Shown piece after piece: positions 1,767-19,374 of a stretch of DNA of 64,000 nt. The position numbers and the translations under genes were made by a program. The notes under the pieces were generated by a model that saw only the letters and a list, made by a program, of their open reading frames with translations, ran no database searches and was not told where the DNA came from. The stretch lies in IMG/VR virus record IMGVR_UViG_3300017700_000537, positions 1 to 64,000 of that record. The stretch is one strand, 5' to 3'. Positions within the stretch are counted from its first letter, which is position 1. The number at the start of each line of letters is the position of its first letter. The DNA is from a virus (taxonomy: Duplodnaviria > Caudoviricetes).

Positions 1767-1868
1767 GATTGATATTTTTTTTGATTGTTGAAAAATTAGT
1801 TTAAAAAATCCCGGCAACCCACCAAGAATCCATTTCGCTGGAGGGTAAAAATGGGCTGCCATGGATTG

Positions 1869-2585
1869 TTATTTGATTAGTTTGCGAGGGGCTAACACCT
1901 TGATAGCCTCACCATTAAGTTTATTACCGATGCTTGATTCGCTGAACGGCCAGTAATTGTCGTCTATGTTAATGTACTGGTCGCCTTCCTCTATCACATC
2001 CCCCTCCACGAAGGGGCGGTAACGGGGTTCTGCCGATATTTTTCGGCGAAGTAGTTTGTCTTGCGCAGCCATTGGCCCCAAAATATTCCCAATGTCATCG
2101 GTATTCACTTCCCATCTTCCTGGCCAAATCTGTTCCTCATCACCCTCTTGGATTGTTTCACCCGCTTCAAGGTATCGGTATTCGCCGATTGGTTCCGTTG
2201 GTTCATCCTCAGCCGGTACTTCCTCGTCCTCCTTCGTGTTTTCCCAGTCAATGTTGTCGCCGAAGTCGTTCATGTACTGCTGGTGTTCGTGGCAATGTTT
2301 CGCTTTTGCTGCCTCGGCCAGTTTATCATCAATTTGTTCGTCGGTAAGCCCTGTTGTGTCAATTATCACCCTTATCAGGGGCGAATAGTTCACAAGGAAG
2401 GCTACCCTGCCTGTAAATTGGATTTCACGGCGAAACTCATTACTTAACTCCTCCATCCTCGTAATTGCTTCATCGCCATTTACTTTGCTTATCTTTCGCC
2501 ATGTTCCGCCATTGAAATCTTCGTCGAAGCATTCATCGCCAGCTTGTACGGTTTCGCCTTCTGTCAAAAATCTGTACTTTTTCAT
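1869..2585 (-). CDS. Hypothetical protein with three YRxLxxGExIxxGD repeats
   Basis: Likely start MKKYRF at 2585 (the track's start lies in the tRNA-like element); repeats YRFLTEGETVQAGDE, YRYLEAGETIQEGDE, YRPFVEGDVIEEGDQ. Confidence 0.7.
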   Translation of the reverse strand: MKKYRFLTEGETVQAGDECFDEDFNGGTWRKISKVNGDEAITRMEELSNEFRREIQFTGRVAFLVNYSPLIRVIIDTTGLTDEQIDDKLAEAAKAKHCHEHQQYMNDFGDNIDWENTKEDEEVPAEDEPTEPIGEYRYLEAGETIQEGDEEQIWPGRWEVNTDDIGNILGPMAAQDKLLRRKISAEPRYRPFVEGDVIEEGDQYINIDDNYWPFSESSIGNKLNGEAIKVLAPRKLIK

Positions 2586-2617
2586 AATTGATAAATTTTT
2601 AAGTGTGAATTGATTAG

Positions 2618-2692
2618 TTGCTGCGACGGGATTTGAACCCGCATACATCAGGACATGACCCCGACTCTTTCGGCCAATTAAGTTACGCAGCA
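2618..2692 (-). tRNA. tRNA-like gene, anticodon CAT (Met/Ile2), atypical
   Basis: Cloverleaf folded by hand: acceptor TGCTGCG/CGCAGCA, anticodon stem TCGGG/CCTGA with loop GTCATGT, T-arm GCGGG-TTCAAAT-CCCGT; no encoded CCA; G32/T38 are non-canonical. Confidence 0.6.
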
Positions 2693-2784
2693 TTGTTAAA
2701 AAATCCCGGCAAATCCCAAGTGAAAGTTCAGGGGCGAAGCAACCTTCCTACCCCTGCTTATCATTCACTCAAAAATTACCATGT

Positions 2785-3135
2785 TTATTCGTAAATCCTA
2801 TCCGCTCCCACATTTGACCGCAGATAGACCTTTTTGACAGTCCCCTTTTCCAGAATCAGAAGATAGTGCCCTGCCGAAGTCTCCACTTCGCAGCTATCCA
2901 CCGACTTTGACTGAAAAAGGATTTGTTCCAGCCATTCCTGGCCATTCTCCGACACTTTGAGCTTTCCGGGGAGCAGTTGGATGGCCGATGGGCAAATGCG
3001 CTCCTCTGTGCCGTCCCTGTCCTTTAAGATTAGTTTGTCGAAGCTCCCGCTTTGGCACCTCACTTTTACAGTGAAAAGCAGTCCGGCAATGATTAGCAGG
3101 ATGATGGGCCAAAGGCTTTTGATGTTGTCTTTCAT
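2785..3135 (-). CDS. Exported hypothetical protein (signal peptide followed by Gln)
   Basis: MKDNIKSLWPIILLIIAGLLFTVKVRC-Q N-terminus. Confidence 0.65.
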   Translation of the reverse strand: MKDNIKSLWPIILLIIAGLLFTVKVRCQSGSFDKLILKDRDGTEERICPSAIQLLPGKLKVSENGQEWLEQILFQSKSVDSCEVETSAGHYLLILEKGTVKKVYLRSNVGADRIYE

Positions 3136-3175
3136 GTGATATTGATTTTAGTTGTGATTGGATTGCCGGGATTTT

Positions 3176-3385
3176 TCAACCTTCATCTTCCATCAAATCA
3201 TCAGTTAGATTTTCAAGATATTTCAACTTCTCCTCTCTTGTCATACCTTCTCTTGGCCATTCGACCTTTAAGATGGCGTCCCTTACTTTTTCGTCCTTAG
3301 CTTGAGCTGCCTTTTTGTCAAGTTTGTAGCCCTTTCGGCTGTTTAGCCTTTTGATGATTTCTTCGTCGTGGTTGTGGAAACTCAT
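3176..3385 (-). CDS. Small hypothetical protein
   Basis: ORF 3176..3415; likely start MSFHNH. Confidence 0.5.
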   Translation of the reverse strand: MSFHNHDEEIIKRLNSRKGYKLDKKAAQAKDEKVRDAILKVEWPREGMTREEKLKYLENLTDDLMEDEG

Positions 3386-3429: not shown

Positions 3430-3636
3430 TTACCTACTCCAGTCATTGAAGCCTGACATAAACCCAATGGGGTCTTTCCTCCTTGTCAGCGTTCCAAGCT
3501 CCCGCCTGTTGTAGGCGTTTCTAACCACTTTGTCGCTGGCAAGGTAACAAAGGTCATCTAATGCGCTTTCTTCGCTGTGGATGTCATTGAGTAGTTCGTT
3601 GAGATGTTTTTCGTAATTCTTTTTAGTCTTTAGCAT
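3430..3636 (-). CDS. Small hypothetical protein
   Basis: ORF 3430..3660; likely start MLKTKK after an A-rich leader. Confidence 0.55.
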   Translation of the reverse strand: MLKTKKNYEKHLNELLNDIHSEESALDDLCYLASDKVVRNAYNRRELGTLTRRKDPIGFMSGFNDWSR

Positions 3637-3704
3637 GGCAATTTTAAGTTTTCCCACCAAAAAATCCCGGCAAACACCAGTATTTATTGATAGTTTGTTA
3701 AGAA

Positions 3705-3778: not shown

Positions 3779-3794
3779 GTCTTTGGTTTTGGTG

Positions 3795-4547: not shown

Positions 4548-4610
4548 GGTATTTAAAATTTAAGTGTGAAAAAATTAGTTTACTAAAAAATCCCGGCAAA
4601 ATCAAAGGTA

Positions 4611-5252: not shown

Positions 5253-5486
5253 GGTTGATAAGTTTTAAAATGTTATGGTAAATTGTGCCTGTTGTCGGTA
5301 CTGCCCCGACTTTTCCACTGTTAAGGCGTCCTATTGATACTATCTCTTAGACGAAAATTACCCGGTCGTGGCGTCCTCTCATTTATAGACGAAACAGGTT
5401 AAAAAATCTCGGCAAAACCTAAGCCCTGCCTAGTTTGTGCGGCCAAAGGCTTGCACCAGTGGCGTTAACCTTTGGCCGCTTGGGTG

Positions 5487-6107: not shown

Positions 6108-6479
6108 TTAAGCGCAAAATTTCGGCTGTGTCCAATTTGCGGCCTGTTCCTGTGAGATTTGCCGGGATTTTTGAAGCATATCAACGAAACAGTTCCACTC
6201 AAAGCGCAAAAGTGGTTTATCGGTCTTGTCTAGGCTTGGTAGAAACTCCGCTTTAAACTGTTTCTCAGCCGTTGTTTTTGTAATTGCGTCCGGTATGTAG
6301 TCGGGGTTTTCAACCTTGCGGCCCTTTATCCTGTATGGGATATGTGGCACATTTTCTTTGTAGCACTTTATTTGCGCCCTTGCTTCTCTCAATGTGGCAT
6401 CGGTTGTTTCGTCCTCCCAAATGCCGTAATAGTAGCCTTGTATGGCATATTCTTTGATGAATTTTGGATTGTAACGCAT
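6108..6479 (-). CDS. Hypothetical protein
   Basis: 123-aa ORF with the shared leader. Confidence 0.6.
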   Translation of the reverse strand: MRYNPKFIKEYAIQGYYYGIWEDETTDATLREARAQIKCYKENVPHIPYRIKGRKVENPDYIPDAITKTTAEKQFKAEFLPSLDKTDKPLLRFEWNCFVDMLQKSRQISQEQAANWTQPKFCA

Positions 6480-6535
6480 GGTAAAAGTTATTTTAAGTGT
6501 TAATAGGTCAAAATTCCCGGCAAAAGAAAAGTTTT

Positions 6536-6595: not shown

Positions 6596-6886
6596 TTAGG
6601 TTATTGGTTCGTTGCGGTAGAATTTGATGAAGGTCAAGTCTTCGCTATATTTTACCCGTAAATTATCAGGGAATCCCCAGTATGCCCCTCCTTTATCGTA
6701 CCCGCCACTGTCAAGCGGTACTTTTCGGTCAAAAATCCTACCTTTTACGTTGTAGTATTTTGTTCCGTTGTGAAATTCTTGTACAACATCCGGCAAGGTG
6801 TTAAACCTTCCCATCGGAGCGCCGTATTGAGTATTGCATTTTTTGATTATCATTTTGAACAGTTCGGAGCTTTTTACTTTTTGCAT
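6596..6886 (-). CDS. Hypothetical protein, paralog of 4083..4547
   Basis: Shared GYDKGGAYWG motif and DNA similarity (ccccagtatgccc..cctttrtcgtaccc). Confidence 0.75.
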   Translation of the reverse strand: MQKVKSSELFKMIIKKCNTQYGAPMGRFNTLPDVVQEFHNGTKYYNVKGRIFDRKVPLDSGGYDKGGAYWGFPDNLRVKYSEDLTFIKFYRNEPIT

Positions 6887-6930
6887 GGAATGAATATTGA
6901 AAAGGTGAAAGGTTGAAAAATCCCGGAAAA

Positions 6931-7113
6931 TCAAAAATGGCCGATAGGTTGGTGCATCTCAATGCAAGCGATACCGTGCGAAGTATCACGGCAAGCGAAT
7001 GCAATGTAGTTATCTTGCGAAGGCCTACCAAATGCGTACCAGTATTGGCCTTTTGCGTCTGAATAGACAAAGCCAAGTATTTTTCTGCCGTTTTTTACTA
7101 ATGTCTTTTTCAT
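6931..7113 (-). CDS. Small hypothetical protein
   Basis: 60-aa ORF MKKTLVKNGRK, co-oriented with the early arm. Confidence 0.55.
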   Translation of the reverse strand: MKKTLVKNGRKILGFVYSDAKGQYWYAFGRPSQDNYIAFACRDTSHGIACIEMHQPIGHF

Positions 7114-7441: not shown

Positions 7442-8060
7442 GGTAAGTTAAATTTAAGTGTGAGAAATTGCACCTTGTTAACATCAAAGTTCACGGTAGA
7501 TCCGCAAGGTGTATTATAAGCGTTCAGTCGCTTCTACGATTTGCAACGGTTGAACATCCCCGTATTAAGTAGAAAGACTATCTACTGCAAATCGGTATCG
7601 TTTATTTTAGTTTGTTTGGACGATAACCACCAAACAAACAGGGCAAAAAATCCCGGCAAACAAACTAATTGCTAGTAAGTTTGTGGCCGTTGAGCGGAAT
7701 ACTTTTGCCCAAAGAATGTCAACGTCTTGACTGTTATCAGCCGCAAGACACATTTTCAAGTCAATGAATACGGTAGTTGATAGCGTAGGCATTCGCCGTC
7801 TTGCAAACTCAATTGCATCAATCACAGCTCGGCCAGGCCGGTAAAAAATCCCGGCAAACAAGTGATAAAAACAGTTGTACTTTGTAACGTCTAAAATCGA
7901 AGAAACGAATGTGAAAACCATTTAGGCACTGTTCGCAAGGTCGCTAGTAATGTGCCGTATTTTCACCCACATTGAAAGGCTTAGAATCTGGTCGAAATTG
8001 TAGGGATGTTTAAGCCCTGTTAATCTGTCCGTATCGCTGCGCTTTCGCTGTTTGATGATG

Positions 8061-8092
8061 CAAAGATGGGGTAAGAAATTGGATTTGTCAAG
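8061..8092 (-). promoter_or_regulatory. Leftward Bacteroidota sigma-A-type promoter for the early arm
   Basis: Minus strand TTGACAAA...CATCTTTGCA, a near match to TTTG / TAnnTTTG. Confidence 0.5.
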
Positions 8093-8564
8093 CCTTTGAG
8101 AATAAAATATTTACTTGGTAACGATATGAAATCGCATAACTCATTGATACTCTAAGCATAACAAGTAAAATGGAAAAATGTAAGCAATGGTAAAAAATCC
8201 CGGCAAACAACAAGCCATCCTAAAGAATCAGCACTAAGAAGGACTACCAATACAAGGAACACACAAGAAAGTAGCACAGAACGCAGCAAATAGGGCAAGG
8301 ATAGGCAGCAACAACTCAAAGCAGGGGCAGCAATAGCCAAGAGGTGCAAGATAGGGCGAACAATGGCCAAATGTGGGAGGAACAAAGCCAAGAACCAGGC
8401 AATAGTGGGAGAAAATAGCAGGAAAACAGGCTTAATTGGTGGCTAGGTGTAGATTGTAGGACGATATTTAGGCGGTTTGTGGGGTGTGGTGGGAATGAGA
8501 GGCGAGGAAGGGGAGGATGGGAGGGGGTGGGGTTGTTCCACTACGCCAACACTACGTCACTTAG

Positions 8565-8669
8565 AAGTGTGTGTTCTACACTTATAACCTGACCTCCGAA
8601 CAAGTGTAGAATACACACTTATCTAACACCTAAATTGCGCTACTGTGATTAATCACATTAATCACAGTA
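8565..8669. repeat. Two adjacent long inverted repeats
   Basis: AAGTGTGTGTTCTACACTT (8565-8583) vs AAGTGTAGAATACACACTT (8602-8620), 18/19 match; TACTGTGATTAAT (8641-8653) vs ATTAATCACAGTA (8657-8669), perfect. Confidence 0.9.
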
Positions 8670-9036
8670 AGCGTTTCACTCTCACGCTAATACAGTAGAT
8701 AAGGTGTTCATTATCAATTAGTTACAACATTTCACGCCTGATTGAGCAAAGAGGTATTTAGACGCTGCATTGCATTCAGCCGCAAGGTTTTACGCTAATG
8801 GAGAAAAAGCAGGCAATTTGGCATGAAAAAAGAGACCCCACCCGGTATTGAATCCCGCATTTCTTTTGTTGAGCCGTTTCTGAAATCGTAGGGATAACCC
8901 CCACTCCCTCCCCACACCCAAAAATTTTTACGATGGCTGCACAAAAAACTCCAATGTAGTAGCCCAAAATCCACCCCCACCCCATTTTTTATACAAACTT
9001 TTTTCACCCACCTATTTCATTACGCCAAAACATTCG

Positions 9037-9044
9037 TACCTTTG
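9037..9044 (+). promoter_or_regulatory. Bacteroidota -7 element TACCTTTG
   Basis: Exact TAnnTTTG 28 nt upstream of the HTH gene. Confidence 0.6.
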
Positions 9045-9071
9045 TGGGGTCCAAACGACACAACGGTATAA

Positions 9072-9323
9072 ATGAGGCAAAAAGTACAGAAATTCGACAT
9101 CAAGAAGCTCAGAAAGGCGCTCGGGATGACCCAAGCAGAGGCAGCGTCGTCTTTGGAGATGTCCACTAGGAACTATCAGCGGGTGGAATCCGAGTCTGTC
9201 AGGCTCCCGGTTTTGACCCAATTCATTCTGGCGAACGGCGGCAAGTTTAAGGTGCCCCAGAATCCATTTGAGGTTTTTGAGGTTGGTGAAGCTATTTTCT
9301 CACAAAAAGACTTTTTGGTATGA
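9072..9323 (+). CDS. XRE-family (Cro-like) HTH regulator
   Basis: IKKLRKALGMTQAEAASSLEMSTRNYQRVESE. Confidence 0.85.
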   Translation: MRQKVQKFDIKKLRKALGMTQAEAASSLEMSTRNYQRVESESVRLPVLTQFILANGGKFKVPQNPFEVFEVGEAIFSQKDFLV

Positions 9324-10153
9324 ATGGAATTATCGGCAATAGAAGGCTTTCGGATTCTCCGCACACTGGAGCTGGCGTGTACTTCCTTTTTGACAGGGAC
9401 AACGAGCTGCTGTATGTCGGGATGTCAGAGAGTAATTGCATGGGCAGGGTATTGTCGCACGATAGAGAGGGTGTGATACTGTATTCTAGCTACTTTATCA
9501 TCCCACTTCCGGTCGCCTTGGTTAAGCAAGTTGAGGCTTACCTGATAGCTTCACTGAAGCCTCGGATGAATAGGCTTGGGGTTGATGATGGCAGGAACTT
9601 GGGGTTGATAAAAGAGTATTGGACTGGGCTTGCGAACAGGGCTGGACTTTTTTTAGACTTCTTTTGTGACGGCACAATAGACGGGTTCATCTATCCCTGT
9701 GACATTCCTGTCACAGATAATATGTGGGTTAGGTCTGGTAATTCGTATGTAGTGGGGCGGGCAGGTGGCCGCAGCTTTACCGCAATGACGGAGGGTGGGA
9801 ATGACGTTTTAGTTGTACATGCTCCGTGTGAAAGAATAGAGCGGGACATCTGTTTAGTCTCGATAGATGGATCGGCCAACAGGGCTCTTAGTGGAAGTAT
9901 ATCTAATGTAGCCACATTGACTGTACTCGAATACTTGTCCATGAAGAGTATCGAAGAAATCAGGGCGTCCGGCTTACTGTTCGGCTCAAATTCTGAATTC
10001 AATGAGTGGTCAGCTCACTCTATGTTGTTTGAATTTGAGCTTGATTGGTTACTTTCTGAGTTCAGGGCTGGTAATGTACTTAATGCTGACAATGTGTATG
10101 ATTTGGTAGCCTTCCACTCAAAGAGGAGTTCTATGCCGGCAACAGGATGGTGA
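9320..10153 (+). CDS. GIY-YIG nuclease-domain protein
   Basis: AGVYFLFDRDNELLYVGMSESNCMGRVLSH...VEAYLIASLKPRMN. Confidence 0.75.
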   Translation: MNGIIGNRRLSDSPHTGAGVYFLFDRDNELLYVGMSESNCMGRVLSHDREGVILYSSYFIIPLPVALVKQVEAYLIASLKPRMNRLGVDDGRNLGLIKEYWTGLANRAGLFLDFFCDGTIDGFIYPCDIPVTDNMWVRSGNSYVVGRAGGRSFTAMTEGGNDVLVVHAPCERIERDICLVSIDGSANRALSGSISNVATLTVLEYLSMKSIEEIRASGLLFGSNSEFNEWSAHSMLFEFELDWLLSEFRAGNVLNADNVYDLVAFHSKRSSMPATGW

Positions 10154-10233
10154 AGTTCTCGGAGCTTGTGTTGCTTCCTTCGGCTTTCTAGGTTTTACCG
10201 GCGTTTTGCCGGGATTTTTCAATAATAATCAAA

Positions 10234-10452
10234 ATGTACAAATCAACCAAAATACTTTTCATAGCCTTTTTGATAGGGCAGTCTAGTTTGATAGCAATAA
10301 AGGTTCTCTGGCCTACTGAGATGTCCTGGCTGACCACTTTTGCGCCTACACTAGGCGTGCTGGGCGGGTTCATTGTGGCCTGCATAGCGCTGTCTTTCGT
10401 CACTGGTTTTTGGAAGTGGGTTTTCAACTGTAAAAACGACAATAATGGATAA
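10234..10452 (+). CDS. Small membrane protein (2 TM)
   Basis: Two hydrophobic stretches. Confidence 0.55.
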   Translation: MYKSTKILFIAFLIGQSSLIAIKVLWPTEMSWLTTFAPTLGVLGGFIVACIALSFVTGFWKWVFNCKNDNNG

Positions 10453-10993
10453 TCAAATCAAGTCCCGTTTCTTCGGCAGCTATATTGGCTGCAAATACCA
10501 GTACATTAACCCGGACTTTCCCAAAATGACCCCTGCAATTTTCACCAATTGCGGATTAATTGAAGATGATGGGAATTACAGGGTTAGAAATGAAAACGGG
10601 TTTAACAAACAGGCTTTTGAAGATTGCCAACTAATCCTTCGCCCCCTTCCCTCAATCACCGATGAAGAAGCGATTGCAGCCCTTACTAAAGCAACTGGGC
10701 TATACTTGTGCGATGTTGATAGAAACGAAGATAGGATTGTTGCAGTTGGCGTAAACCATTCTTCATGTGCTGTAATTTGGCTTAAAATATCAGTAAATCA
10801 ATCTGGAACATTCATTCAGGCTTGGAATGATATTAAGGGGCATTCACAACCTGATTGCCACGATTACTTGGCTGTGGACTACTTACGCTCCCTCAATTTC
10901 TGCCTCCCATTCAACTCGATAGACCCAATCGAAGCTGGTTGGGCAATCCTAGAAACAGTTAACCAGCCTACGGGCGCAAACAATCAGGAATGA
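10445..10993 (+). CDS. Hypothetical phage protein
   Basis: 182-aa ORF containing QLILRPLPSITDEEA and DYLRSLNFCLPF. Confidence 0.65.
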   Translation: MDNQIKSRFFGSYIGCKYQYINPDFPKMTPAIFTNCGLIEDDGNYRVRNENGFNKQAFEDCQLILRPLPSITDEEAIAALTKATGLYLCDVDRNEDRIVAVGVNHSSCAVIWLKISVNQSGTFIQAWNDIKGHSQPDCHDYLAVDYLRSLNFCLPFNSIDPIEAGWAILETVNQPTGANNQE

Positions 10994-11265
10994 GCGACAT
11001 AGAAAAACATGGTTCAACTTGGCTTGGTAGATTGCTGGACAAAAAAGCAAAATACAAGGCTGACAAGGAAATGAACGACAAGATTATTAATGAATCCTGC
11101 ACCTGCACTGGCAGCTATCAAGTAATTGGATGCACTGCATACGATAGCGGAAAGTGCATCTGGCATCCTGGTAACGACCCCTACGGTTTGAAGGATAGGG
11201 AATGGGTGAACGGCTTTTTCGTGAAAAAATCTAACCAGCCGCAAGGCGAAACACCAACCCAATGA
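10990..11265 (+). CDS. Hypothetical Cys-containing protein
   Basis: ATGA-coupled ORF. Confidence 0.55.
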   Translation: MSDIEKHGSTWLGRLLDKKAKYKADKEMNDKIINESCTCTGSYQVIGCTAYDSGKCIWHPGNDPYGLKDREWVNGFFVKKSNQPQGETPTQ

Positions 11266-11459
11266 CAGAATCAAATCCAACCTGCCAATCCAATTGCATC
11301 CGTGATACAATGGAATCCGGCCTCTGTGATTGCTACAACAACGACGAACACCCAGCTTGCAGGGAAGAAAAATGGTCAAACGGCAGATGCTTTCTGGTCA
11401 TAGCTGGACTGGTTGGTGTAAGCTGGGGGATTATTTTCTGGCTTGCCGGGATTTTTTGA
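11262..11459 (+). CDS. Small Cys-rich protein with C-terminal TM
   Basis: ATGA-coupled; ends ...GIIFWLAGIF. Confidence 0.5.
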   Translation: MTESNPTCQSNCIRDTMESGLCDCYNNDEHPACREEKWSNGRCFLVIAGLVGVSWGIIFWLAGIF

Positions 11460-11713
11460 CTAAATGTAAAAGAAATGAGTAAATTCAAAATTGGGGACAA
11501 GGTGAAACATCCATGCGATTCAAGCGCTTTCGAGGTTGTTGGAGTCAGGGAAGCCGAAATTGAAATAAAGGGGATTGGTCCGGCGGGACACAACCGTGCA
11601 ATCAGGCTGGATGGGTTCCGACCGAAACAGTGAAGCCTTACGATGAGACAAAGGTTGTTTATTACATAAACGGGAAGCCTCACAAAAATGGAGTTCCGAT
11701 TTAATCCACCACA

Positions 11714-11818
11714 ATGGAACAGAAATTCTCAAACAGGGTGTGCGCAGCCATAATCGTGTCGCTTGTTGTGGCCGTGGCCGCATGGGCTGCTATCTTCTTT
11801 TTTGCCGGGATTCTTTGA
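11714..11818 (+). CDS. 34-aa membrane peptide
   Basis: Hand translation: MEQKFSNRVCAAIIVSLVVAVAAWAAIFFFAGIL. Confidence 0.4.
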   Translation: MEQKFSNRVCAAIIVSLVVAVAAWAAIFFFAGIL

Positions 11819-12013
11819 CAAATGACCCGCCACCGCCCCATACCCCCTAAAAAATCAAAGATAATGAAACCGTGCGCCGTCTGCGGGCTGGAATTTTCGA
11901 TAGACGACCTTACTATCGACTGGAAAAACTTCCGCTTGGTGTGCAAAAAATGTAAACTACTGGCAGTTCAGGACGAAGAGGGCTGAGTTTGCCGGGATTT
12001 TTTAAGAAATAAC

Positions 12014-12313
12014 ATGCGAAACGTATCGGAATTAACGACAAAAGAAGGTGCTGGCCTCTGGAACGCCTGTATGCCGAAACGTTATTGCCCGTTCAACGGC
12101 AATTCCTTTCATCATCCGGCAAATGACAGGACGCCAGAAAGATTTTGCTTCATGTACGGCGTTGAGCGGCTTGGCGTACACTTTGACGGGTACATCTGGG
12201 CAGATTGCGACCTTACCAGTAGGATTGAGGTTGACGAACAGTCTGCGACGGACTACCTGACCAGCATTGGTATTGAAAGGTTTTCACCAAAAAATCCAGG
12301 CAATGACAAATAA
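12014..12313 (+). CDS. Hypothetical protein
   Basis: 99-aa ORF after a motif copy and A-rich leader. Confidence 0.55.
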   Translation: MRNVSELTTKEGAGLWNACMPKRYCPFNGNSFHHPANDRTPERFCFMYGVERLGVHFDGYIWADCDLTSRIEVDEQSATDYLTSIGIERFSPKNPGNDK

Positions 12314-12695
12314 CCTCCACGGACGCAATTTCTCCGCAGAAATCTACGGCATACCAGTCCTTGGCACCATATCGGTGGGCAAGCTGGGCGGAATCTACCT
12401 CTGTCAGGATAGGCTTGCCGGCGGTGGCTTTAACTGTGACGATAAATTCGGCTACGAATACACTTGGTACGTCACGGAAGGCGGACTATGTGACGAAATC
12501 ACCAACCTCAAAATCCTCCCATCCGCCCTAGAATACCACGCCCTGTTCACCAAAATCCTGTCCAATACCGGCACTGCCTGGCAGGACGACGGCAGTTACT
12601 GGGTGGTGCCGGACGAAGTGGCGGCAGAGATTACGGCTTTTATGGACAAAATAGAGGCTGTGGATGTTGAAAATCTTGGAGAATCTAAAAATTAA
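12303..12695 (+). CDS. Hypothetical protein
   Basis: ORF 12267..12695; likely start MTNNLHG. Confidence 0.55.
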   Translation: MTNNLHGRNFSAEIYGIPVLGTISVGKLGGIYLCQDRLAGGGFNCDDKFGYEYTWYVTEGGLCDEITNLKILPSALEYHALFTKILSNTGTAWQDDGSYWVVPDEVAAEITAFMDKIEAVDVENLGESKN

Positions 12696-12700: not shown

Positions 12701-13033
12701 ATGAACGCAGAAGAATTTATATCAAAGACACAGGAAGGGAGGCATGACACTGGAGCTGACCCCAGCGGATTTTCGTATAGCCATAGCCTCGTTGTGAAAT
12801 TATTGGACAACTATGCCGCCCACTGCGAGGAGTCTGCTTGGGTCGATGTGAATGATTCCTTGCCAGAACGCTGGGACGGCTATCCATTATCAAGGAATTG
12901 TTTTTTGTTTAATGGGAAGGAATATCTGATGGGATTTTACAGCTATGCGCATTCCCAGTGGGAGTCGGACGAGTACGCTCCGATTGAAGGAGTCACCCAC
13001 TGGCGACCCCTCCCAAAAAATCCCGGCAAATGA
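12701..13033 (+). CDS. DUF551-like phage protein
   Basis: WVDVNDSLPE...GVTHWRPLPKNP. Confidence 0.75.
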   Translation: MNAEEFISKTQEGRHDTGADPSGFSYSHSLVVKLLDNYAAHCEESAWVDVNDSLPERWDGYPLSRNCFLFNGKEYLMGFYSYAHSQWESDEYAPIEGVTHWRPLPKNPGK

Positions 13034-13133: not shown

Positions 13134-13943
13134 ATGTCAGAACTTAGAATCAAGCTCCTCGAGCTCGCCATCCAGGGTGGCGCAACAATCGACAACGCCG
13201 AGCGTGTCGCAACCGACTGGGAAAACTGGGCAGCAGATGCTCACCCTTTGAAGCTGGGTACGCCGAGCCCAAAACCCTGTGAGCATGAATTTGAATGGGA
13301 TTGCCTGATGGTTGGCTGCGAGTGCGCTCCAAAGCCTGTTGAGCCCGAAATCGACTGGGATTTCAAGGGCGACCAATACTTGACGCACACCCCATCTGGG
13401 ATTACCTTCGCCTATGCTGGCAAGCATGAGGAAGGCGGATTTTACGGAACAAGGTTGGGGTCAGGGTGTTGGGGATGGGTATCGAAAAATGGATTCCGAC
13501 GAGGGGCTGGCCTGCATGACGAATCAAAAAATCCCGGCAACTCTGAACGGGAAATCGACTGGTCCCGCCCACAACTTGTGACTTGTAGTTCAGGAATGGT
13601 TGTGCAGACAACCGGCAAACACGCAGGGTGTAGTTTCGAGGGGGTAGTAGTTGGTAGTGGCCGTTTTCGTGAAGTCGGAGAATTTATTACTGGGCTTACG
13701 AAATTAAACTTTACCTACCACGGAGAAATCCCGGCAGAACCAAAGACCACCGGCCTGAACTTCTTGGAGGCAATGGAGGCGACCCTAAATGGGTTTACAG
13801 TTAGAAGGCCCGACAATGCGTGGTACTTATTTGACCCCGAGCAATTGTGCGTCAAGATGTCAACTGGCCGGGGTGGGCTTATTTTTCCCGTAATCTATCA
13901 AGATGACATCCTCGCCACCGACTGGCAAATCATCCCAAAATGA
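13134..13943 (+). CDS. Modular hypothetical protein with DUF2829-like C-terminus
   Basis: Likely start MSELRIKLL; C-terminal LNFLEAMEATLNGFTVRR...DILATDWQI. Confidence 0.6.
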   Translation: MSELRIKLLELAIQGGATIDNAERVATDWENWAADAHPLKLGTPSPKPCEHEFEWDCLMVGCECAPKPVEPEIDWDFKGDQYLTHTPSGITFAYAGKHEEGGFYGTRLGSGCWGWVSKNGFRRGAGLHDESKNPGNSEREIDWSRPQLVTCSSGMVVQTTGKHAGCSFEGVVVGSGRFREVGEFITGLTKLNFTYHGEIPAEPKTTGLNFLEAMEATLNGFTVRRPDNAWYLFDPEQLCVKMSTGRGGLIFPVIYQDDILATDWQIIPK

Positions 13944-14329
13944 AAATCCAAATCCTAAAGAAAACGAACAAAGCCCTCTTCGCAAGGCGCCAGAAGGGCT
14001 TCAACGGCAGGGCTTTCGTCCTTGGCCTCGACGACAGGTTCATCGTGCTCCAGAACGCCAAAAAGAAGGATAAATCCACCGCCGTCCTCACTCACTGCGA
14101 CATCGGCCTGTTCGCTCCGGCCAACGGCACAGAGCTGGTGCTTGATGCTGTCCAGCGCCATTATCTGAAAAAATACGGCAAGGAGTTGCTATTGATTAAA
14201 TCTTTCGTATCTTTGCAAAGATTTACGGAGAACGGGAAAGTTTACGAACTGAATCTGGCTCCAATCAGCAAACAAAAAGAACTGGATTTAGATGAGAATA
14301 CTGAGGATATTGAAGGCGAGAAGGGTTAG
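13940..14329 (+). CDS. Hypothetical protein
   Basis: ATGA-coupled 129-aa ORF. Confidence 0.6.
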   Translation: MKIQILKKTNKALFARRQKGFNGRAFVLGLDDRFIVLQNAKKKDKSTAVLTHCDIGLFAPANGTELVLDAVQRHYLKKYGKELLLIKSFVSLQRFTENGKVYELNLAPISKQKELDLDENTEDIEGEKG

Positions 14330-14801
14330 GATGGGTTTCCTGCAAAAAGACCTTGCAAAAAAATGCGGTGTTTCAAAGCAGGTCATCTGCGAGATAGAGA
14401 CCGGCAAGCAAAGGCCTTGGAGATACACATTGGTTCGCATCTGTGATGAGCTTTCGATGCCAGACATCGACAGGGCTTCATTGTTTCGTCACTTCAAGCA
14501 TGAAGATGTTTCAGGCCTGAATGACCCTATCATCATCGTCCGGTCAATCCGTAAAAAGATAGGAATGACGCAGGACGACCTGGCGGCAAGGGTCGGGTCA
14601 AATAGGGGTGTTATCAGTAAATTCGAGAAGGGGGAACTTATTAATTTGGAACTGGCCGAGCTGATATGCGATGCGCTTGGCATCAAGGGGAAAAAGAAAT
14701 CCAAAATTCTAAAATCTCTCCATGAGGATAACGAACATCAAGAACCTGAGACAGGCGTTCACGCCGGGATGCCGTGTGAACCGGCACACGATACGAATTA
14801 A
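14292..14801 (+). CDS. Tandem XRE-family HTH regulator
   Basis: Two HTH_3-type units: LKARRVRMGFLQKDLAKKCGVSKQVICEIETG and IRKKIGMTQDDLAARVGSNRGVISKFEKG. Confidence 0.85.
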   Translation: MRILRILKARRVRMGFLQKDLAKKCGVSKQVICEIETGKQRPWRYTLVRICDELSMPDIDRASLFRHFKHEDVSGLNDPIIIVRSIRKKIGMTQDDLAARVGSNRGVISKFEKGELINLELAELICDALGIKGKKKSKILKSLHEDNEHQEPETGVHAGMPCEPAHDTN

Positions 14802-15060: not shown

Positions 15061-15350
15061 CAAAAATCAATAAAAATAAAGAAGCAAGAAAGCCAATCGT
15101 CGCCAAGGTTGACCTGAAATTCATCAGGACTATCGGCAAGATGGCTGGAAAGCTCACCGCTGGCACGACCACAGCCTATTTGCTGCCGTTCATGTTCAGC
15201 CGGAACGTTGAAATGCCGGTCGGGATGTACCAAGTGACGGAACTACGGGACCTGCCCGACAATGTGCTGGCCAGCTTTGGACTGCAAAGAATCCAAGTTC
15301 CAGTCCCCGCAGAAATTGTTGACCAAAAAATCCCGGCAAATGAGGAATAA
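15057..15350 (+). CDS. Hypothetical protein
   Basis: 97-aa ORF. Confidence 0.55.
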   Translation: MTKINKNKEARKPIVAKVDLKFIRTIGKMAGKLTAGTTTAYLLPFMFSRNVEMPVGMYQVTELRDLPDNVLASFGLQRIQVPVPAEIVDQKIPANEE

Positions 15351-15930
15351 CAAATCCGGCACCTACGCCAAGGCCCCGCTTAACTACGAAGAGCTGCGCA
15401 CCTTCATCGACACCATCATTAACCCAGAGTACCGCCTGATGGTAGCCATCATCACAGCGGGCTTCATGCGGGTAGGAGAGGTGGTGAAGATGCGGAAGGG
15501 CGACATCGCCAACGGCAAGATAATGGTCAGAAAGACCAAAGTCCGCCATGACAAGAACCATCGCCCCATAAAACCCTACCGTGAGGTCCCTATGCCAGAA
15601 TGGGTTCAGGAAATCGCCAACGAAGTATTGCCACTCCTAAAAAGGCAGAAGGACGAGCTGTTGTTTCAGAAACAACGTGGAGGTGGAGGGCTAACTGTGA
15701 ACGGCGTGAATGACAGGCTTGACAGGATTTTCGCAAAGACCGAGACCACTCAAAAGGTCACTTGCCACTCCCTGCGCCGCACGGCAGCCGTCAGGATTCA
15801 CGACAACAGCGGGAACGACCTTCGCATGGTGCAGATAGCCTGCGACCACAAGTCCATCGCCACATCCGGCATCTACGTGATGAAGGGTAGGGCGGATTTC
15901 GAGGAAAAATACAAAGCAGCATTCGGATGA
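15340..15930 (+). CDS. Tyrosine recombinase, catalytic domain only (about 196 aa)
   Basis: Catalytic residues R (GFMRVGEV), K (RKTK), HxxR (HSLRR), H...Y (DHKSIATSGIY); likely start MRNNKSG. Confidence 0.85.
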   Translation: MRNNKSGTYAKAPLNYEELRTFIDTIINPEYRLMVAIITAGFMRVGEVVKMRKGDIANGKIMVRKTKVRHDKNHRPIKPYREVPMPEWVQEIANEVLPLLKRQKDELLFQKQRGGGGLTVNGVNDRLDRIFAKTETTQKVTCHSLRRTAAVRIHDNSGNDLRMVQIACDHKSIATSGIYVMKGRADFEEKYKAAFG

Positions 15931-16496: not shown

Positions 16497-17185
16497 TATA
16501 CGAAGGAAGGCCAGGCAGCAACAGGTTCGACAGGGACCAGTTCCGGCACATGAAGTGCTTTGACCTGATAAAGTGGACCGACCACAATGACGTGAGCAGG
16601 GAAATGCGGAAGTTCTACGACCGTCGCATCCCATCCGTGCTTGCCCTCATCAAGAAGAACAAGCCCTATGGCCTAGCGCAGGCGAAGTACATCGCCCTCG
16701 TCTATGACAAGCAGAGCCCATTCATCCCCGAGCATCCCATCATCACCGACAGGAAGAAGGCCGTGGCATCATTTTTGGGGATGAACGAATCGAAGTACGA
16801 GACCGTAAAGCTGGCCTGCATCGACCTGTCGAACGAGGCGGTCGTCGATGCCCTATCTGATTACCTGAAATGGCAGGACGACTACGTTTGGGCCATGATA
16901 GTGCAGAACGAGGAGGTGTTCTATGGCAATCAGCGCCAGATTTTGCAGGGCGTGAACATCGAGGGCAAGGACACCGACCGCTTCAAGGCGGCAGAGTACC
17001 AGTCCAAGCTACTGTCCATCAACAACAGCATCCAGAAGACCGTGAAGGCGCTCTGGGCAGAGTTCACCGGCAACGACCCGTTCGCAGAGGCAAAACTAAA
17101 AGAGCGGAAGCCTGTTTCCCCGGAGACTATGGCGGAATACGATGTTGAAGGGGTGGTGTACGAGCTGGGCGAAGAAGAAGAGTAA
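16493..17185 (+). CDS. Conserved phage protein upstream of TerL (small terminase candidate)
   Basis: Position and size; likely start MIYEGRP, ATGA-coupled. Confidence 0.55.
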   Translation: MIYEGRPGSNRFDRDQFRHMKCFDLIKWTDHNDVSREMRKFYDRRIPSVLALIKKNKPYGLAQAKYIALVYDKQSPFIPEHPIITDRKKAVASFLGMNESKYETVKLACIDLSNEAVVDALSDYLKWQDDYVWAMIVQNEEVFYGNQRQILQGVNIEGKDTDRFKAAEYQSKLLSINNSIQKTVKALWAEFTGNDPFAEAKLKERKPVSPETMAEYDVEGVVYELGEEEE

Positions 17186-17205
17186 TCAATTAAAATTTCA
17201 ATAAA

Positions 17206-17373
17206 ATGTACGAAAAACAAAGATTGGCTGAAATCGAATTGGAAAAGATTAGGTTCAAAGCGCAACTTAGGCAGTTTGCATTGGATGTAGTCAGGCAGAA
17301 CTCAGGCGGTGTGCTATCAACTGAGGGAATGATAGCTGATGCAAAATTGGTAGTTGAGTTTTTGGAATCTTAA
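17206..17373 (+). CDS. 55-aa hypothetical protein
   Basis: Hand translation: MYEKQRLAEIELEKIRFKAQLRQFALDVVRQ... Confidence 0.45.
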   Translation: MYEKQRLAEIELEKIRFKAQLRQFALDVVRQNSGGVLSTEGMIADAKLVVEFLES

Positions 17374-17415
17374 CAGCATAATTTGTACTACCAACGAAGT
17401 AAGAAAGACACGAAA

Positions 17416-19374
17416 ATGACAATCCAGGATGTGGTATGCTACGTACCGCCTCCTGGATTTGTATTTGACAGGTTCACCGGAGAAGTGGTGGAGGCCGAAA
17501 TCTACCAGCGCTCACCAATCCAGAAAGAGCAGAAATGGGAAATCCCGCCTGCCCCAAAGGACTATGACGACAAAAGGCTGGAAGAGGAGGAGAAACAGGA
17601 CTCCAACCCCAACTACGTTGACAATGAACTGGAATCCTACCGGAAACAGGAATGGTTCCGTAGGATGAACGGGTTCTGGTTTATGAACAACGGTGTGCCG
17701 ACCTACATCACAGGTGCCCACTATTATTACCTCGCCCACTGGAAAATCGACATCGGCCCACCGCACTTCTGGTATTCAGACCTTCAATCGTTCTATTTCT
17801 GGCAGTGCTGTGTGGAAGACCCGAGGTGTGGCGGAATGCTTGCGTTTGACCGAAGGCGTGCAGGCAAAAGCTGGAAGGCTTCATCCATACTCACAGAAGC
17901 CGTCAGTCGCCGCAAACGGGCCCTTGGCGGCATACAGTCCAAGAACTCCAATGACGCAAGGGACTTCTTTCAGTTGTTCGTCATAGAGGGGTTCCGGCAG
18001 CTCCCGCACTTCTTTAAGCCAGAGTACGACCGAAGCCAGGGTGACATTCCCAAGGCAGAGCTTCGTTTTTTCCCGACCACCGAGCGCGGCAGGCAAGCGA
18101 GGGGCAAGAAGAAGGTAGATGCCCTCAACTCCCGTATCAACTTCAAGGATGCCAGCGAAAGGGCCTATGATGGCAAGAAAATCCTGATAGGGGTGATGGA
18201 CGAGTTCGGAAAGCTGGAGGATGCCGACCTTGAGGAAAGGCACAGGGTATTGAAGTTCTGTATCTCGGACGGCCCGGCCATTATCGGCAAGCTGCTGTAC
18301 ATCACCACAGTGGAGGACATCAAGAACTCCAACTGCCTTGCCAAGGCCCAGAAACTATTCCAGGAGTCCGACCCCACCAAGCGGGACGGCAACGGCAGGA
18401 CAGAATCCTGGCTGTACCGCTTCAGGCTCCCGTTCTACGAATCCTACGAGATGGACGAGTACGGTATGCCAAAGCGTGAGGAATCCAAGCGCAAGGTGCA
18501 GAACACACTCGATGGCCTCATCGCAAAGGGTGACTTCGTTTCCATCGCCTCCGAGCGCCGCAAGAACCCGTGGAACGACGACGACATCTTCCGGGTGTCG
18601 GCCAACGCCCCTATCTTCGACATCATCAAGATTGCCGACCAGATTTCGCTCCTTTCGTGGAAGAAGCCGAGCGACCTCTACCGGCGTGGCAACTTCGTCT
18701 GGGAAGGTGGGCAGCGGGACACAAGGGTGAAGTTTGTTGAGATAGCCAACGGCAGGTTCCTACTAAGGACGAGAGAGATGGACGGGGTGCGCCAAAATTT
18801 GCAAAGACCAATAAATAAGCATAGATTTGCAATCGGTTGCGACCCTTTCGAGCACAGGGCGTCGTTCGAGCCGTCCAACGGGGCGGCGCACGTACTGAAG
18901 AAGTACGACCCGACCAGCCCGGACATGCAGAACGAGTACGTGATGGAATACTGCGCAAGGCCGCAACCAAACGTTTTCTTTGAGGACATGGTGCGGATGT
19001 GCGTGTACTTTGGCGCTCCGATGCTCTGTGAGGCGAACAGGATAGGCTTGATAAACTATTTCTCCGACAGGGGATACCACAGCTTCCTCACCTGGCTACC
19101 GGGGCAAAAAAATCCCGGCATATTCGCAGGGGAGAAGTCGAAGCAGCACGGAGCGGAGCGGATGGACAACTACGTGCAGGACCACTGCCACACGATAATG
19201 TTCCCGCTGTTGCTCAAAGACCTCTCGATGTTCGACCTGTCCGACTCCACCAAGTACGACCGGGCCATGTCGGCAATCTGGACGTTGGTGGCAGCAGGGG
19301 AGATAGCGCTGGAGGAGGAAACGCAGAAAGTAGAAGAAATAACTGACTTTTTTACGCCACATAGGATAAGATGA
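17416..19374 (+). CDS. terL: Terminase large subunit
   Basis: Walker A RRAGKSW, Walker B IGVMDEFGK, RNase H-like IGCDPF and D-x-A-M-S end motif. Confidence 0.9.
   Translation: MTIQDVVCYVPPPGFVFDRFTGEVVEAEIYQRSPIQKEQKWEIPPAPKDYDDKRLEEEEKQDSNPNYVDNELESYRKQEWFRRMNGFWFMNNGVPTYITGAHYYYLAHWKIDIGPPHFWYSDLQSFYFWQCCVEDPRCGGMLAFDRRRAGKSWKASSILTEAVSRRKRALGGIQSKNSNDARDFFQLFVIEGFRQLPHFFKPEYDRSQGDIPKAELRFFPTTERGRQARGKKKVDALNSRINFKDASERAYDGKKILIGVMDEFGKLEDADLEERHRVLKFCISDGPAIIGKLLYITTVEDIKNSNCLAKAQKLFQESDPTKRDGNGRTESWLYRFRLPFYESYEMDEYGMPKREESKRKVQNTLDGLIAKGDFVSIASERRKNPWNDDDIFRVSANAPIFDIIKIADQISLLSWKKPSDLYRRGNFVWEGGQRDTRVKFVEIANGRFLLRTREMDGVRQNLQRPINKHRFAIGCDPFEHRASFEPSNGAAHVLKKYDPTSPDMQNEYVMEYCARPQPNVFFEDMVRMCVYFGAPMLCEANRIGLINYFSDRGYHSFLTWLPGQKNPGIFAGEKSKQHGAERMDNYVQDHCHTIMFPLLLKDLSMFDLSDSTKYDRAMSAIWTLVAAGEIALEEETQKVEEITDFFTPHRIR

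What the first reader, a model, noticed from the sequence alone, without database searches (positions are those of the whole stretch)
1803..19120. Dispersed asymmetric motif AAAAAATCCCGGCAAA selected at the DNA level
Seen: 17 exact 12-mer copies (chance expectation far below one) plus many one-base variants. 15 of the 17 lie between 1.8 and 15.4 kb; TCTCGG variants cluster at 59-63 kb; the motif is sparse in the virion genes. It occurs on both strands: intergenic (often 15-40 nt upstream of a start, and 5 nt before the tRNA), overlapping stop/start junctions (13015, 15325), and inside CDSs in several frames (KNPG/KNLG, KIPA/KISA, KSRQ, and FAGIF in reverse). Copies are mostly unpaired, so they are not terminator arms. 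Known: frame-independent embedding in coding DNA is the hallmark of DNA uptake sequences and Chi/KOPS-type signals. Inference: a protein-recognition signal concentrated in the early and replication arms, possibly for DNA entry or protection, a regulator, a recombinase, or a host-derived uptake-like sequence. The common CCCGG-to-CTCGG variant would fit deamination of a methylated inner C in CCNGG, but may simply be tolerated.
Basis: partly seen in the sequence, partly recalled or inferred. Interest (0 to 1): 0.8.

Follow-up and report, generated by a model that had tools for sequence, protein, structure and literature searches.

The report
Dispersed asymmetric regulator sites in phage
A 75-kb phage of a Bacteroidota host carries about 40-50 copies of one lopsided 16-18-base DNA word, placed mainly at gene junctions outside the virion genes. 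It is most likely the docking site of a phage regulator, possibly a protein with two DNA-reading domains encoded nearby, that controls many early genes at once.

Summary
AAAATCCCGGCA occurs 17 times in the window (0.05 expected) and 22 times in the 75,035-bp genome. A weight matrix finds 51 sites against about 2 in Markov nulls. The motif is YY-AAAAAATCCCGGCAAA, is asymmetric and has no conserved flanks.

The selection acts on nucleic acid. Of 10 coding sites whose peptide allows the word, 8 carry it, against 0.12 expected from codon usage. The terminase copy is made by synonymous codons only.

The copies are not scattered at random in coding DNA. They sit at gene junctions (p=3e-5) in the early and replication arms (36 of 39, p=7e-8), in both orientations and in blocks. 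Seven sense copies end exactly in the next gene's ATG. Several copies overlap the -33 box of host-type promoters.

No host-like enrichment appeared in 401 sampled Bacteroidota genomes, and there is no strand polarity. I found no phage RNA polymerase: the polymerase-like ORF matches family A DNA polymerases.

My best reading, at about 0.45, is an operator/stoperator-like network. The candidate reader is a 169-aa protein with two tandem XRE domains (14292-14801). Its only fetched homologue lies in the one relative that keeps the motif.

Closest known systems are mycobacteriophage L5 stoperators and P1 C1 operators. This scan has reported similar dispersed-site networks in other phages. Nothing here has been tested at the bench.

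The parts
1803..1818 (+). motif copy, antisense to the leftward genes (class B); 36 nt before the ATG at 1766
   Evidence: a TAATTTTT box lies 4 nt downstream
2698..2713 (+). perfect copy, class B; 5 nt upstream of tRNA-Met (2617-2692, minus strand)
3162..3177 (-). sense copy (class A); the stop codon of the upstream gene overlaps its 5' end, and the next ATG is 26 nt away
3659..3674 (+). perfect copy, class B; 22 nt before the ATG at 3636
4585..4600 (+). perfect copy, class B; follows a terminator hairpin, and its TTTG is spaced 19 nt from TAATTTTT (a host-type -33/-7 arrangement)
5401..5416 (+). TCTCGG variant, class B, in a 234-nt intergenic gap
6158..6173 (-). sense copy inside gene 6108-6479, read as QKSRQ, 50 nt before the stop
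6509..6524 (+). 2-mismatch copy, class B; follows a terminator hairpin, 29 nt before the ATG at 6479
6915..6930 (+). 2-mismatch copy, class B; abuts the stop of the 60-aa ORF 6931-7113 (minus strand), 28 nt before the ATG at 6886
7645..7660 (+). perfect copy, antisense, inside the 104-aa ORF 7607-7921 (minus strand), read as FAGIF
7843..7858 (+). perfect copy, antisense, inside the same ORF
8192..8207 (+). perfect copy, antisense; its TTTG is spaced 21 nt from TACATTTT (promoter-like, leftward)
10205..10220 (-). class B copy, intergenic, 13 nt before the ATG at 10234
11442..11457 (-). class B copy that encodes the C-terminus ...WLAGIF* of ORF 11262-11459; the next ATG is at 11475
11801..11816 (-). 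class B copy that encodes ...FFAGIL* of a 34-aa hydrophobic ORF; the next ATG is 5 nt away
11988..12003 (-). perfect class B copy filling the 27-nt junction before the ATG at 12014
12289..12304 (+). class A copy; the ATG of gene 12303-12695 is in register at its 3' end
13015..13030 (+). perfect class A copy at an ATGA stop/start overlap; the upstream gene ends ...KNPGK*
13526..13541 (+). sense copy inside a CDS
15325..15340 (+). perfect class A copy ending in the ATG of the tyrosine recombinase gene (15340-15930); conserved in relative L248 while the flanks have diverged
19107..19122 (+). sense copy inside TerL, made by synonymous codons over the conserved QKNPGI
53610..53625 (-). weaker copy (15.5 bits) ending in the ATG of gene 53375-53611
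55925..55940 (-). class A copy at a gene end (...KIPANK*), with ATGA just downstream
57536..57551 (+). 2-mismatch sense copy near the end of the Sak-like gene
59302..59317 (+). TCTCGG-variant class A copy; the upstream stop is formed at its 5' end, and the next ATG is 10 nt away
60258..60273 (+). TCTCGG-variant class A copy; the upstream gene ends ...KNLGR*, and the next ATG is 15 nt away
60560..60600 (.). the only inverted pair of copies (60560 plus strand, 60585 minus strand); forms a terminator-like hairpin, and the T-run of the second copy supplies the -33 TTTG of the consensus promoter at 60598-60628
14292..14801 (+). candidate reader P0121: 169 aa with two tandem XRE-type HTH domains
   Evidence: pLDDT 78; domains 2-67 and 79-148; homologue in L248
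14169..14215 (+). degenerate gapped copy (GAAAAAATACGGCAAG) that abuts a host-type promoter (TTG-N19-TATCTTTG) 77 nt upstream of P0121
9072..9323 (+). single-domain XRE protein, first gene of the rightward operon; the palindrome TGTGATTAATCACA at about 8650 is its likelier operator

Best explanation
The motif is the multi-copy operator of a phage-encoded DNA-binding regulator. The network resembles the operators and stoperators of mycobacteriophage L5 and the dispersed C1 operators of phage P1.

Shown:
- It is a 16-18-bp asymmetric word with about 40-50 copies.
- It is kept by selection on the DNA itself.
- It sits at gene junctions and next to some host-type promoters in the early and replication arms.
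- It is nearly absent from the virion operon.

Inferred:
- A monomer with two different DNA-reading heads recognises the two unlike halves of the word.
- The best candidate is the tandem-XRE protein at 14292-14801.
- Where the word overlaps a -33 box, binding would block initiation.
- At tight junctions inside operons, binding would act as a roadblock or local switch.
- One protein would therefore turn down most non-structural genes together, either as early shut-off or in a carrier or lysogenic state. The late operon, which has its own consensus promoter, would stay exempt.
For: - Over-representation and specificity: (51 sites against about 1.9 in nulls). Seventy-nine more distant relatives have 0.92 sites per 75 kb.
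- DNA-level selection: 8 of 10 sites against 0.12 expected; the TerL copy is synonymous-only.
- Junction placement: (p=3e-5 with automatic gene calls). Arm restriction: (36 of 39, p=7e-8).
- Asymmetry with all 16 positions informative and no spacer.
- Promoter overlap at 60598-60628, 4585 and 8192.
- Site conservation: the copy at the recombinase gene start is 15/16 identical in L248 while the upstream flank is about 40% identical.
- Candidate reader: two complete XRE domains in one 169-aa chain. Its only fetched homologue is in L248, the only relative that has the motif. The recognition helix of domain 1 is conserved. A degenerate copy abuts its own promoter.
- Precedent: a monomer with two DNA-binding domains reads an asymmetric 13-mer at more than 20 sites (PMC9283540). 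P1 has 22 dispersed asymmetric 17-bp C1 operators (PMC8546580).
Against: - There are no binding data.
- Orientation relative to transcription is not uniform as it is in L5. It comes in blocks: B B B B A A A A A along the rightward operon, and mostly B in the left arm.
- Seven sense copies are in exact register with the next ATG. A DNA roadblock does not require this, and it hints at an RNA or start-site role.
- The link to P0121 rests on two genomes.
- P0121 lies co-oriented inside a lytic operon, unlike a classical immunity repressor.
- Temperate lifestyle is unproven; the only sign is a 196-aa catalytic-domain tyrosine recombinase.
Confidence: 0.45

Rival explanations
1. The motif is a phage-specific promoter or promoter-proximal element. 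It would be read by host RNA polymerase carrying a phage sigma or appropriator, or by a phage polymerase. Sense copies would start leaderless or short-leader mRNAs at the motif's last A. Antisense copies in the early arms would fire antisense transcripts that silence early genes.
For: - Seven sense copies put the next ATG exactly at the motif's end, and others lie 3-26 nt upstream of a start.
- The block switch from antisense to sense copies at about 12.1 kb would mark an early/middle boundary.
- The size and asymmetry resemble T7-type promoters.
- The PolA-superfamily ORF has a T7-RNAP-like HDS motif C.
Against: - No RNA polymerase or sigma factor was found.
- The polymerase-like ORF matches only family A DNA polymerases by fold, and the phage otherwise lacks a DNA polymerase.
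- No -7 box lies at a fixed distance, and the motif differs from the host TTTG/TAnnTTTG promoters that the phage demonstrably uses.
- Half the copies point against the genes.
- The base after the motif shows no purine preference.
Confidence: 0.17
2. The motif is an RNA-level element. Sense copies in mRNA (AAAAAAUCCCGGCAAA at the translation start region) would be translational operators or nuclease sites. The antisense copies in early-gene leaders are perfectly complementary and could pair with them, forming a 16-bp duplex that cuts or silences one temporal class.
For: - Register with the ATG, and stop/start overlaps.
- Sense copies are predicted to be more accessible than controls (0.65 against 0.48 unpaired).
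- The one local A-B pair does form a hairpin.
- Sense and antisense copies are segregated by block.
Against: - There is no conserved local structure and no Rfam family.
- No RNA-binding protein candidate was found.
- Copies overlap the -33 boxes of promoters, which lie upstream of any transcript.
- The copy 5 nt before a tRNA has no translational role.
- Long-range mRNA-mRNA pairing of this kind has no precedent known to me.
Confidence: 0.12
3. The motif is a recombination signal. It could be a site for the small tyrosine recombinase (inversion or shuffling of gene cassettes), or short boundary homology that promotes exchange of accessory genes between phages.
For: - A conserved copy sits exactly at the recombinase gene start in both phages.
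- Copies bracket single small genes in inverted pairs, for example 11988/12289, 73536/73239 and 3659/3162.
- Homology with L248 starts exactly at the 13015 copy.
Against: - The site lacks the two inverted binding arms around a 6-8-bp spacer that tyrosine recombinases use.
- Gene order and strand are orderly, with no sign of scrambling.
- Gene starts are mosaic joints in phages anyway.
Confidence: 0.08
4. The motif is a host-derived or polar genome signal: a DNA uptake sequence, a Chi- or KOPS-type signal, or a DNA-entry or protection signal.
For: The motif appears in several reading frames and is kept by DNA-level selection.
Against: - At most 4 exact 14-mers occur per genome in 401 sampled Bacteroidota genomes, and about 2-3 per Mb at one mismatch in 5 others.
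- Single chance copies only were seen in the collection scans.
- There is no strand polarity.
- The copies are tied to junctions and excluded from half the genome.
- At 16-18 bp it is far longer than Chi or KOPS.
Confidence: 0.03

Closest known systems
Operator/stoperator network of cluster A mycobacteriophages (L5 gp71, Bxb1, TipsytheTRex repressor; PMC9283540)
   Same: An asymmetric site with dozens of copies spread over the genome. Sites lie in promoters and in short intergenic gaps or gene junctions. In L5 the site is read by a monomer with two DNA-binding domains; here a two-HTH protein is the candidate reader.
   Different: - The site is 16-18 bp rather than 13 bp.
- Orientation is mixed and comes in blocks, rather than uniform with transcription.
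- Sites are almost absent from the virion genes.
- The candidate reader is a tandem XRE protein, not a gp71 homologue.
- The host is Bacteroidota, not Actinobacteria.
- Lysogeny is not shown.
- Nothing has been tested experimentally.
Phage P1 C1 repressor operators (22 dispersed asymmetric 17-bp sites, ATTGCTCTAATAAATTT; PMC8546580)
   Same: An asymmetric site of about 17 bp with many dispersed copies that control many separate operons. From memory, the sites occur on either strand and some occur as inverted pairs.
   Different: P1 sites sit at promoters rather than at tight stop/start overlaps. No C1-like protein was recognised here. P1 is a plasmid prophage with a known immunity circuit.
DNA uptake sequences and Chi/KOPS signals
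   Same: A short word that is over-represented and written into genes in several frames by selection on the DNA.
   Different: Those signals are properties of the host chromosome, are strand-polar or position-free, and are 5-12 bp long. This word is phage-specific, is tied to junctions, has no polarity, and was not enriched in the sampled host-phylum genomes.

Membership tests
L5-type operator/stoperator network | Asymmetric binding site present in 20 or more dispersed copies | tested here: met
   Logo. There are 39 copies within 2 mismatches and 51 PWM sites against about 1.9 in nulls.
L5-type operator/stoperator network | Sites lie in promoter regions and in short intergenic spaces or gene junctions | tested here: met
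   (median distance to a gene boundary 36 nt against 122 nt, p=3e-5).
L5-type operator/stoperator network | All sites are oriented one way relative to transcription | tested here: not met
   About half are sense and half antisense, arranged in blocks.
L5-type operator/stoperator network | Repressor homologous to gp71 (HTH plus Stoperator domain) | tested here: not met
   The Pfam and PHROG scans of the roughly 70 ORFs tested returned no gp71-like match, though whether those libraries hold a gp71/Stoperator-domain profile was not checked. The analogue is a tandem XRE protein.
L5-type operator/stoperator network | Protein binding at the sites blocks initiation and elongation | not testable with these tools
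   Needs EMSA or footprinting and reporter assays.
P1 C1 operator network | Dispersed asymmetric operators of about 17 bp, on either strand, at many operons | tested here: met
   The P1 facts come from PMC8546580.
P1 C1 operator network | A C1-family repressor is encoded | tested here: inconclusive
   No annotated match in the Pfam and PHROG scans. Many small ORFs remain unassigned.
DNA uptake sequence / Chi / KOPS | The word is highly enriched in the host chromosome | tested here: not met
   At most 4 exact 14-mers per genome in the 401 Bacteroidota genomes searched. The true host is unknown, so this means 'not found in those searched'.
DNA uptake sequence / Chi / KOPS | Strand polarity relative to replication or packaging | tested here: not met
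   The strand alternates in short blocks.
T7-type single-subunit RNAP promoters | The phage encodes its own RNA polymerase | tested here: not met
   The only polymerase-like ORF gives family A DNA polymerases as all top fold matches. The model confidence is low (pLDDT 57), so this is not final.
T7-type single-subunit RNAP promoters | All copies are co-oriented with the genes they drive | tested here: not met
Bacteroidota primary-sigma promoter (-33 TTTG / -7 TAnnTTTG) | Both boxes present with a 19-21 nt spacer | tested here: not met
   Only 3-4 of 17 antisense copies have a -7-like box at the right distance. True consensus promoters elsewhere, for example 21665-21696, lack the motif.
Intrinsic terminator arms | An inverted partner forms a GC stem followed by a U-run | tested here: not met
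   Only 60560/60585 pair. No consistent structure appeared in folding.

The most novel reading that the evidence does not exclude
A Bacteroidota phage has independently evolved a genome-wide silencing network of the stoperator type. It would be read by a single-chain tandem-XRE protein, and site orientation would carry information: antisense copies mark immediate-early genes, and sense copies locked onto start codons mark middle genes. One protein, or a DNA-plus-RNA dual use of the same word, would thereby time the switch between gene classes.
Probability: 0.25. Interest if true: 0.7.

Novelty: new variant of a known kind. Interest (0 to 1): 0.5.

Why it matters
Gene regulation in phages of Bacteroidota is almost unstudied. 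A single word that marks nearly every early-gene junction gives a direct experimental handle: one oligonucleotide and one candidate protein. It would show how such a phage shuts genes off together.

It would also extend the 'one monomeric repressor, many asymmetric sites' design from actinobacteriophages and P1 to another phylum and another protein fold. The orientation blocks, if they prove meaningful, would add something not described for L5 or P1.

In practice, the motif also helps gene calling. It flags junctions and several very small ORFs that automatic calling missed.

Tried and rejected
- Host uptake-like sequence: rejected after pattern counts in 5 plus 401 Bacteroidota genomes.
- Terminator arms: rejected.
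- Canonical host promoter: rejected as a general reading.
- Phage RNA polymerase promoter: weakened by the fold search of the polymerase-like ORF.
- tRNA T-arm mimic: considered because AAATCCCGGC resembles a T-loop plus stem. Rejected because there is no 7-nt T-loop, no C56 and no 5' stem.
- Slippery-site frameshift: rejected because the frames vary.
- Rfam: only the tRNA.
- Literature string search for the word: primers only.
- Relatives: a megablast search of the phage database gave nothing. TerL scans found only one useful relative, L248 at 79%. The primase-helicase and P0121 scans found none.
- Closer relatives exist: TerL at 85% on a 40-kb contig, 79% on a 60.8-kb contig, and a 99% polymerase on a 26.6-kb contig.
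- Repeated 12-mers in distant relatives (L259, L322, L253, L304) turned out to be tRNA-like arrays, tandem repeats or iterons, not analogues.
- My first split, 'antisense copies are all intergenic, CDS copies are all sense', was an artefact of missed small ORFs. It was corrected.

Full report
**What the DNA is.** The window is the first 64 kb of a single-contig virus record of 75,159 bp. The ends of the record overlap by 124 bp, so the unit genome is 75,035 bp.

- It is a tailed phage. The large terminase is at 17416-19374 and the portal at 19371-21629. A virion block follows, down to about 53.4 kb.
- The host is almost certainly a member of Bacteroidota.
  - Start codons are preceded by A-rich sequence with no Shine-Dalgarno.
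  - The phage carries textbook TTTG-N19-TAnnTTTG promoters, for example at 21665-21696 and 60598-60628.
  - The nearest cultured terminase relatives are Flavobacterium, Cellulophaga and Tenacibaculum phages, at about 30% identity.
- The non-structural genes form two arms.
  - A leftward early arm runs from about 8.4 kb through the origin to about 72.7 kb. A rightward arm starts from the control region at 8.4-9.07 kb.
  - A replication arm at 57-72.6 kb encodes a Sak-like annealase, two HNH nucleases, a DnaD-like initiator, a primase-helicase, an SF2 helicase, an SMC-like ATPase, MazG and RusA.

- AAAATCCCGGCA occurs 17 times in the window against 0.05 in shuffles and 22 times in the genome. 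Markov expectations are 0.05 (order 3) and 0.63 (order 5).
- It is the most frequent word of the genome at every length from 8 to 16.
- The logo built from the 39 copies within two mismatches is YY-AAAAAATCCCGGCAAA. All 16 core positions are informative, there is no low-information spacer, and the flanks are not conserved.
- The inner eight bases are a quasi-palindrome (TSCCGGSA), but the A6 and AAA flanks make the site asymmetric.
- A weight matrix finds 51 sites at 12 bits or more, against about 1.9 in Markov-simulated genomes.
- TCTCGG variants are themselves over-represented (8 against 0.26 expected) and cluster at 59.3-63.0 kb.

**Selection is on the nucleic acid.** Among my called genes, ten sites encode a peptide that could be written with the sense 12-mer. 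Eight of them are written with it, where codon usage predicts 0.12. The copy inside the terminase gene covers the family-invariant QKNPGI. The relative L248 encodes the same residues with four different synonymous choices.

- The copies are tied to gene junctions. With purely automatic gene calls, the median distance from a copy to the nearest gene boundary is 36 nt, against 122 nt for random positions in the same arms (p=3e-5). After adding 15 small ORFs by hand, it is 20 nt against 99 nt.
- Thirty-six of 39 copies lie in the 52% of the genome outside the virion block (p=7e-8).
- Relative to local transcription there are two classes.
  - Sense copies (class A) overlap the end of the upstream gene. 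Its stop lies from 14 nt before to 15 nt after the end of the motif, and the T before the A-run often makes the TAA or TGA.
  - In seven sense copies the next gene's ATG is in exact register with the motif's last bases (12289, 13015, 15325, 53610, 66654, 73983, 74552).
  - Antisense copies (class B) read TTTGCCGGGATTTTTT on the coding strand. They lie 5-37 nt before the next start, and one lies 5 nt before tRNA-Met. They either abut the previous stop or encode the hydrophobic tail of a small ORF (...WLAGIF*...FFAGIL*).
- The classes come in blocks. The rightward operon reads B B B B then A A A A A, switching at about 12.1 kb. The left arm is mostly B near the control region and A at its far end. 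No model I considered explains this fully.

**What it is not.**

- *Not terminator arms.* Only 60560/60585 pair, and folding shows no shared structure.
- *Not the host promoter.* No -7 box lies at a fixed distance, and true consensus promoters lack the motif.
- *Probably not a phage RNA polymerase promoter.* I found no RNA polymerase or sigma factor.
  - That ORF does carry PolA-superfamily motifs.
  - A model built on nine homologues matches only family A DNA polymerases among its top 50 PDB hits.
  - The model confidence is low, so this weakens the promoter reading rather than closing it.
- *Not a host uptake, Chi or KOPS-type signal.* The 401 sampled Bacteroidota genomes hold at most four exact 14-mers each. 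Five others hold 2-3 per Mb at one mismatch, against roughly 400 per Mb in the phage. There is no strand polarity.
- Rfam finds only the tRNA.

**Relatives.** Only one usable relative could be fetched: L248, a 24-kb IMG/VR fragment with 79% terminase identity.

- It has four matrix hits in 16.6 kb, three of them in its 2.8 kb of non-structural DNA. Seventy-nine more distant terminase relatives (1.06 Mb) average 0.92 hits per 75 kb.
- The copy at the recombinase gene start is 15/16 identical in L248, while the upstream flank is unalignable.
- A second orthologous junction holds drifted versions in both phages. A third (13015) is degenerate in L248.
- So the sites are functional, partly conserved in position, and turning over.

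**A candidate reader.**

- Pfam shows that ORF 14292-14801 (P0121, 169 aa) has two XRE-type HTH_3 domains in tandem. PHROG repressor families match it twice.
- The AlphaFold model (pLDDT 78) gives two complete five-helix domains (residues 2-67 and 79-148), joined by an 11-residue flexible linker, plus an acidic tail.
- PDB matches each cover a single domain: 434 Cro and repressor, P22 c2, C-proteins and HigA.
- A single chain with two unlike heads is what an asymmetric site with no dyad calls for.
- Among all loci fetched, the only homologue is in L248. It lies in the syntenic position, just upstream of the conserved motif copy. The recognition helix of domain 1 (SKQxxCEIE) is conserved, while that of domain 2 varies.
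- P0121 appears to have its own host-type promoter (TTG-N19-TATCTTTG, 14186-14215). A gapped, degenerate copy of the motif abuts that promoter's -33 box.
- The other XRE protein (9072-9323, one domain) has a better partner in the perfect palindrome TGTGATTAATCACA in the control region.

**Mechanism I commit to.** The word is a multi-copy operator.

- Where it overlaps a -33 box, a bound protein would block initiation. Examples are the consensus promoter at 60598-60628, and the copies at 4585 and 8192, whose own TTTG is spaced 19-21 nt from a -7-like box.
- At tight junctions it would act as a roadblock or local switch inside operons.
- The virion operon, with its own consensus promoter and almost no sites, would be exempt.

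This design is known from mycobacteriophage L5 and TipsytheTRex. There, a monomer with two DNA-binding domains reads an asymmetric 13-mer at more than 20 operator and stoperator sites (PMC9283540). It is also known from P1, which has 22 dispersed asymmetric 17-bp C1 operators (PMC8546580).

Membership in the L5 family fails on two tested features: uniform orientation, and a gp71-type protein. I therefore call this 'works like', not 'is a member of'. Shown here are the motif, its selection, its placement, its conservation and the two-domain protein.

**Rivals.** Four keep real weight.

- A promoter-type reading (0.17) is kept alive by the ATG register and the block switch.
- An RNA-level reading (0.12) is kept alive by the ATG register, and by the fact that the two classes are perfectly complementary in mRNA.
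- A recombination reading (0.08) rests on a copy at the recombinase start and on inverted pairs that bracket single genes.
- A host-signal reading stands at 0.03.

**Novelty and interest.** This scan has already reported several dispersed binding-site networks in other phages, including a one-directional 16-base word in a Spirosoma prophage (unchecked notes). The phenomenon is therefore not unique. New here are the Bacteroidota setting, a concrete tandem-XRE candidate reader, the codon-level proof of DNA selection, the start-codon register and the orientation blocks. I rate it a new variant of a known kind, with interest 0.5.

**Limits.** The closer relatives seen in the protein searches could therefore not be examined, and the protein-motif link rests on two genomes.

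Noticed in passing
window 8440-9070: Control region between the divergent arms. It holds G-rich (8470-8540) and C-rich (8890-8990) tracts, a 19-bp inverted repeat (8563-8625), the perfect palindrome TGTGATTAATCACA with an overlapping repeat at about 8645-8680, and a -7 box TACCTTTG about 25 nt before the XRE gene at 9072. It looks like a classical switch or origin region.
   Followed up: partly
window 1-1252 (minus strand), continuing across the genome end to G000 74899: A compact PolA-superfamily polymerase, about 462 aa in homologues P0123-P0131. It has motif A DIKNCQMK (Q at the steric-gate position), motif B RSEAKVATFRALYSS and motif C KHDS (T7-RNAP-like HDS rather than HDE). The fold search gives only family A DNA polymerases, but the model is weak (pLDDT 57). 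Its sugar specificity deserves a test.
   Followed up: partly
window 7600-12000: Several very small hydrophobic ORFs of 34-104 aa that automatic calling missed. Some end in (F/L)AGI(F/L)*, encoded by the antisense motif.
   Followed up: partly
proteins P0008, P0009, P0019, P0038, P0067, P0097, P0101: Terminase homologues of about 1,020-1,060 aa carry Hint and homing-endonuclease domains. This indicates inteins inserted in TerL in several relatives; this phage's TerL has none.
   Followed up: no
L259:1-4400 and L322:1000-4400: Distant relatives carry 5-7 co-oriented copies of CCCCCGAACTGC, several of them (about five of the roughly fifteen copies listed in the two loci) followed by a T-arm-like GGTTCGATTCC and a complementary GCAGT. 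These could be arrays of tRNA-like minihelices or truncated tRNA genes.
   Followed up: no
L304:1380-1520: Five tandem iterons, GTACGGATTTTCCGGACA, at a spacing of about 31-33 bp in a distant relative. This looks like a replication origin.
   Followed up: no
window 15340-15930: A tyrosine recombinase of only 196 aa (catalytic domain alone), conserved in L248. It could be an integrase, a dimer resolvase or an invertase; that is unresolved, and with it the lifestyle of the phage.
   Followed up: partly
window 13134-13943: The C-terminus gives a faint hit to the Tad2-like (Thoeris anti-defence 2) domain (E=0.04, below the cut-off).
   Followed up: no
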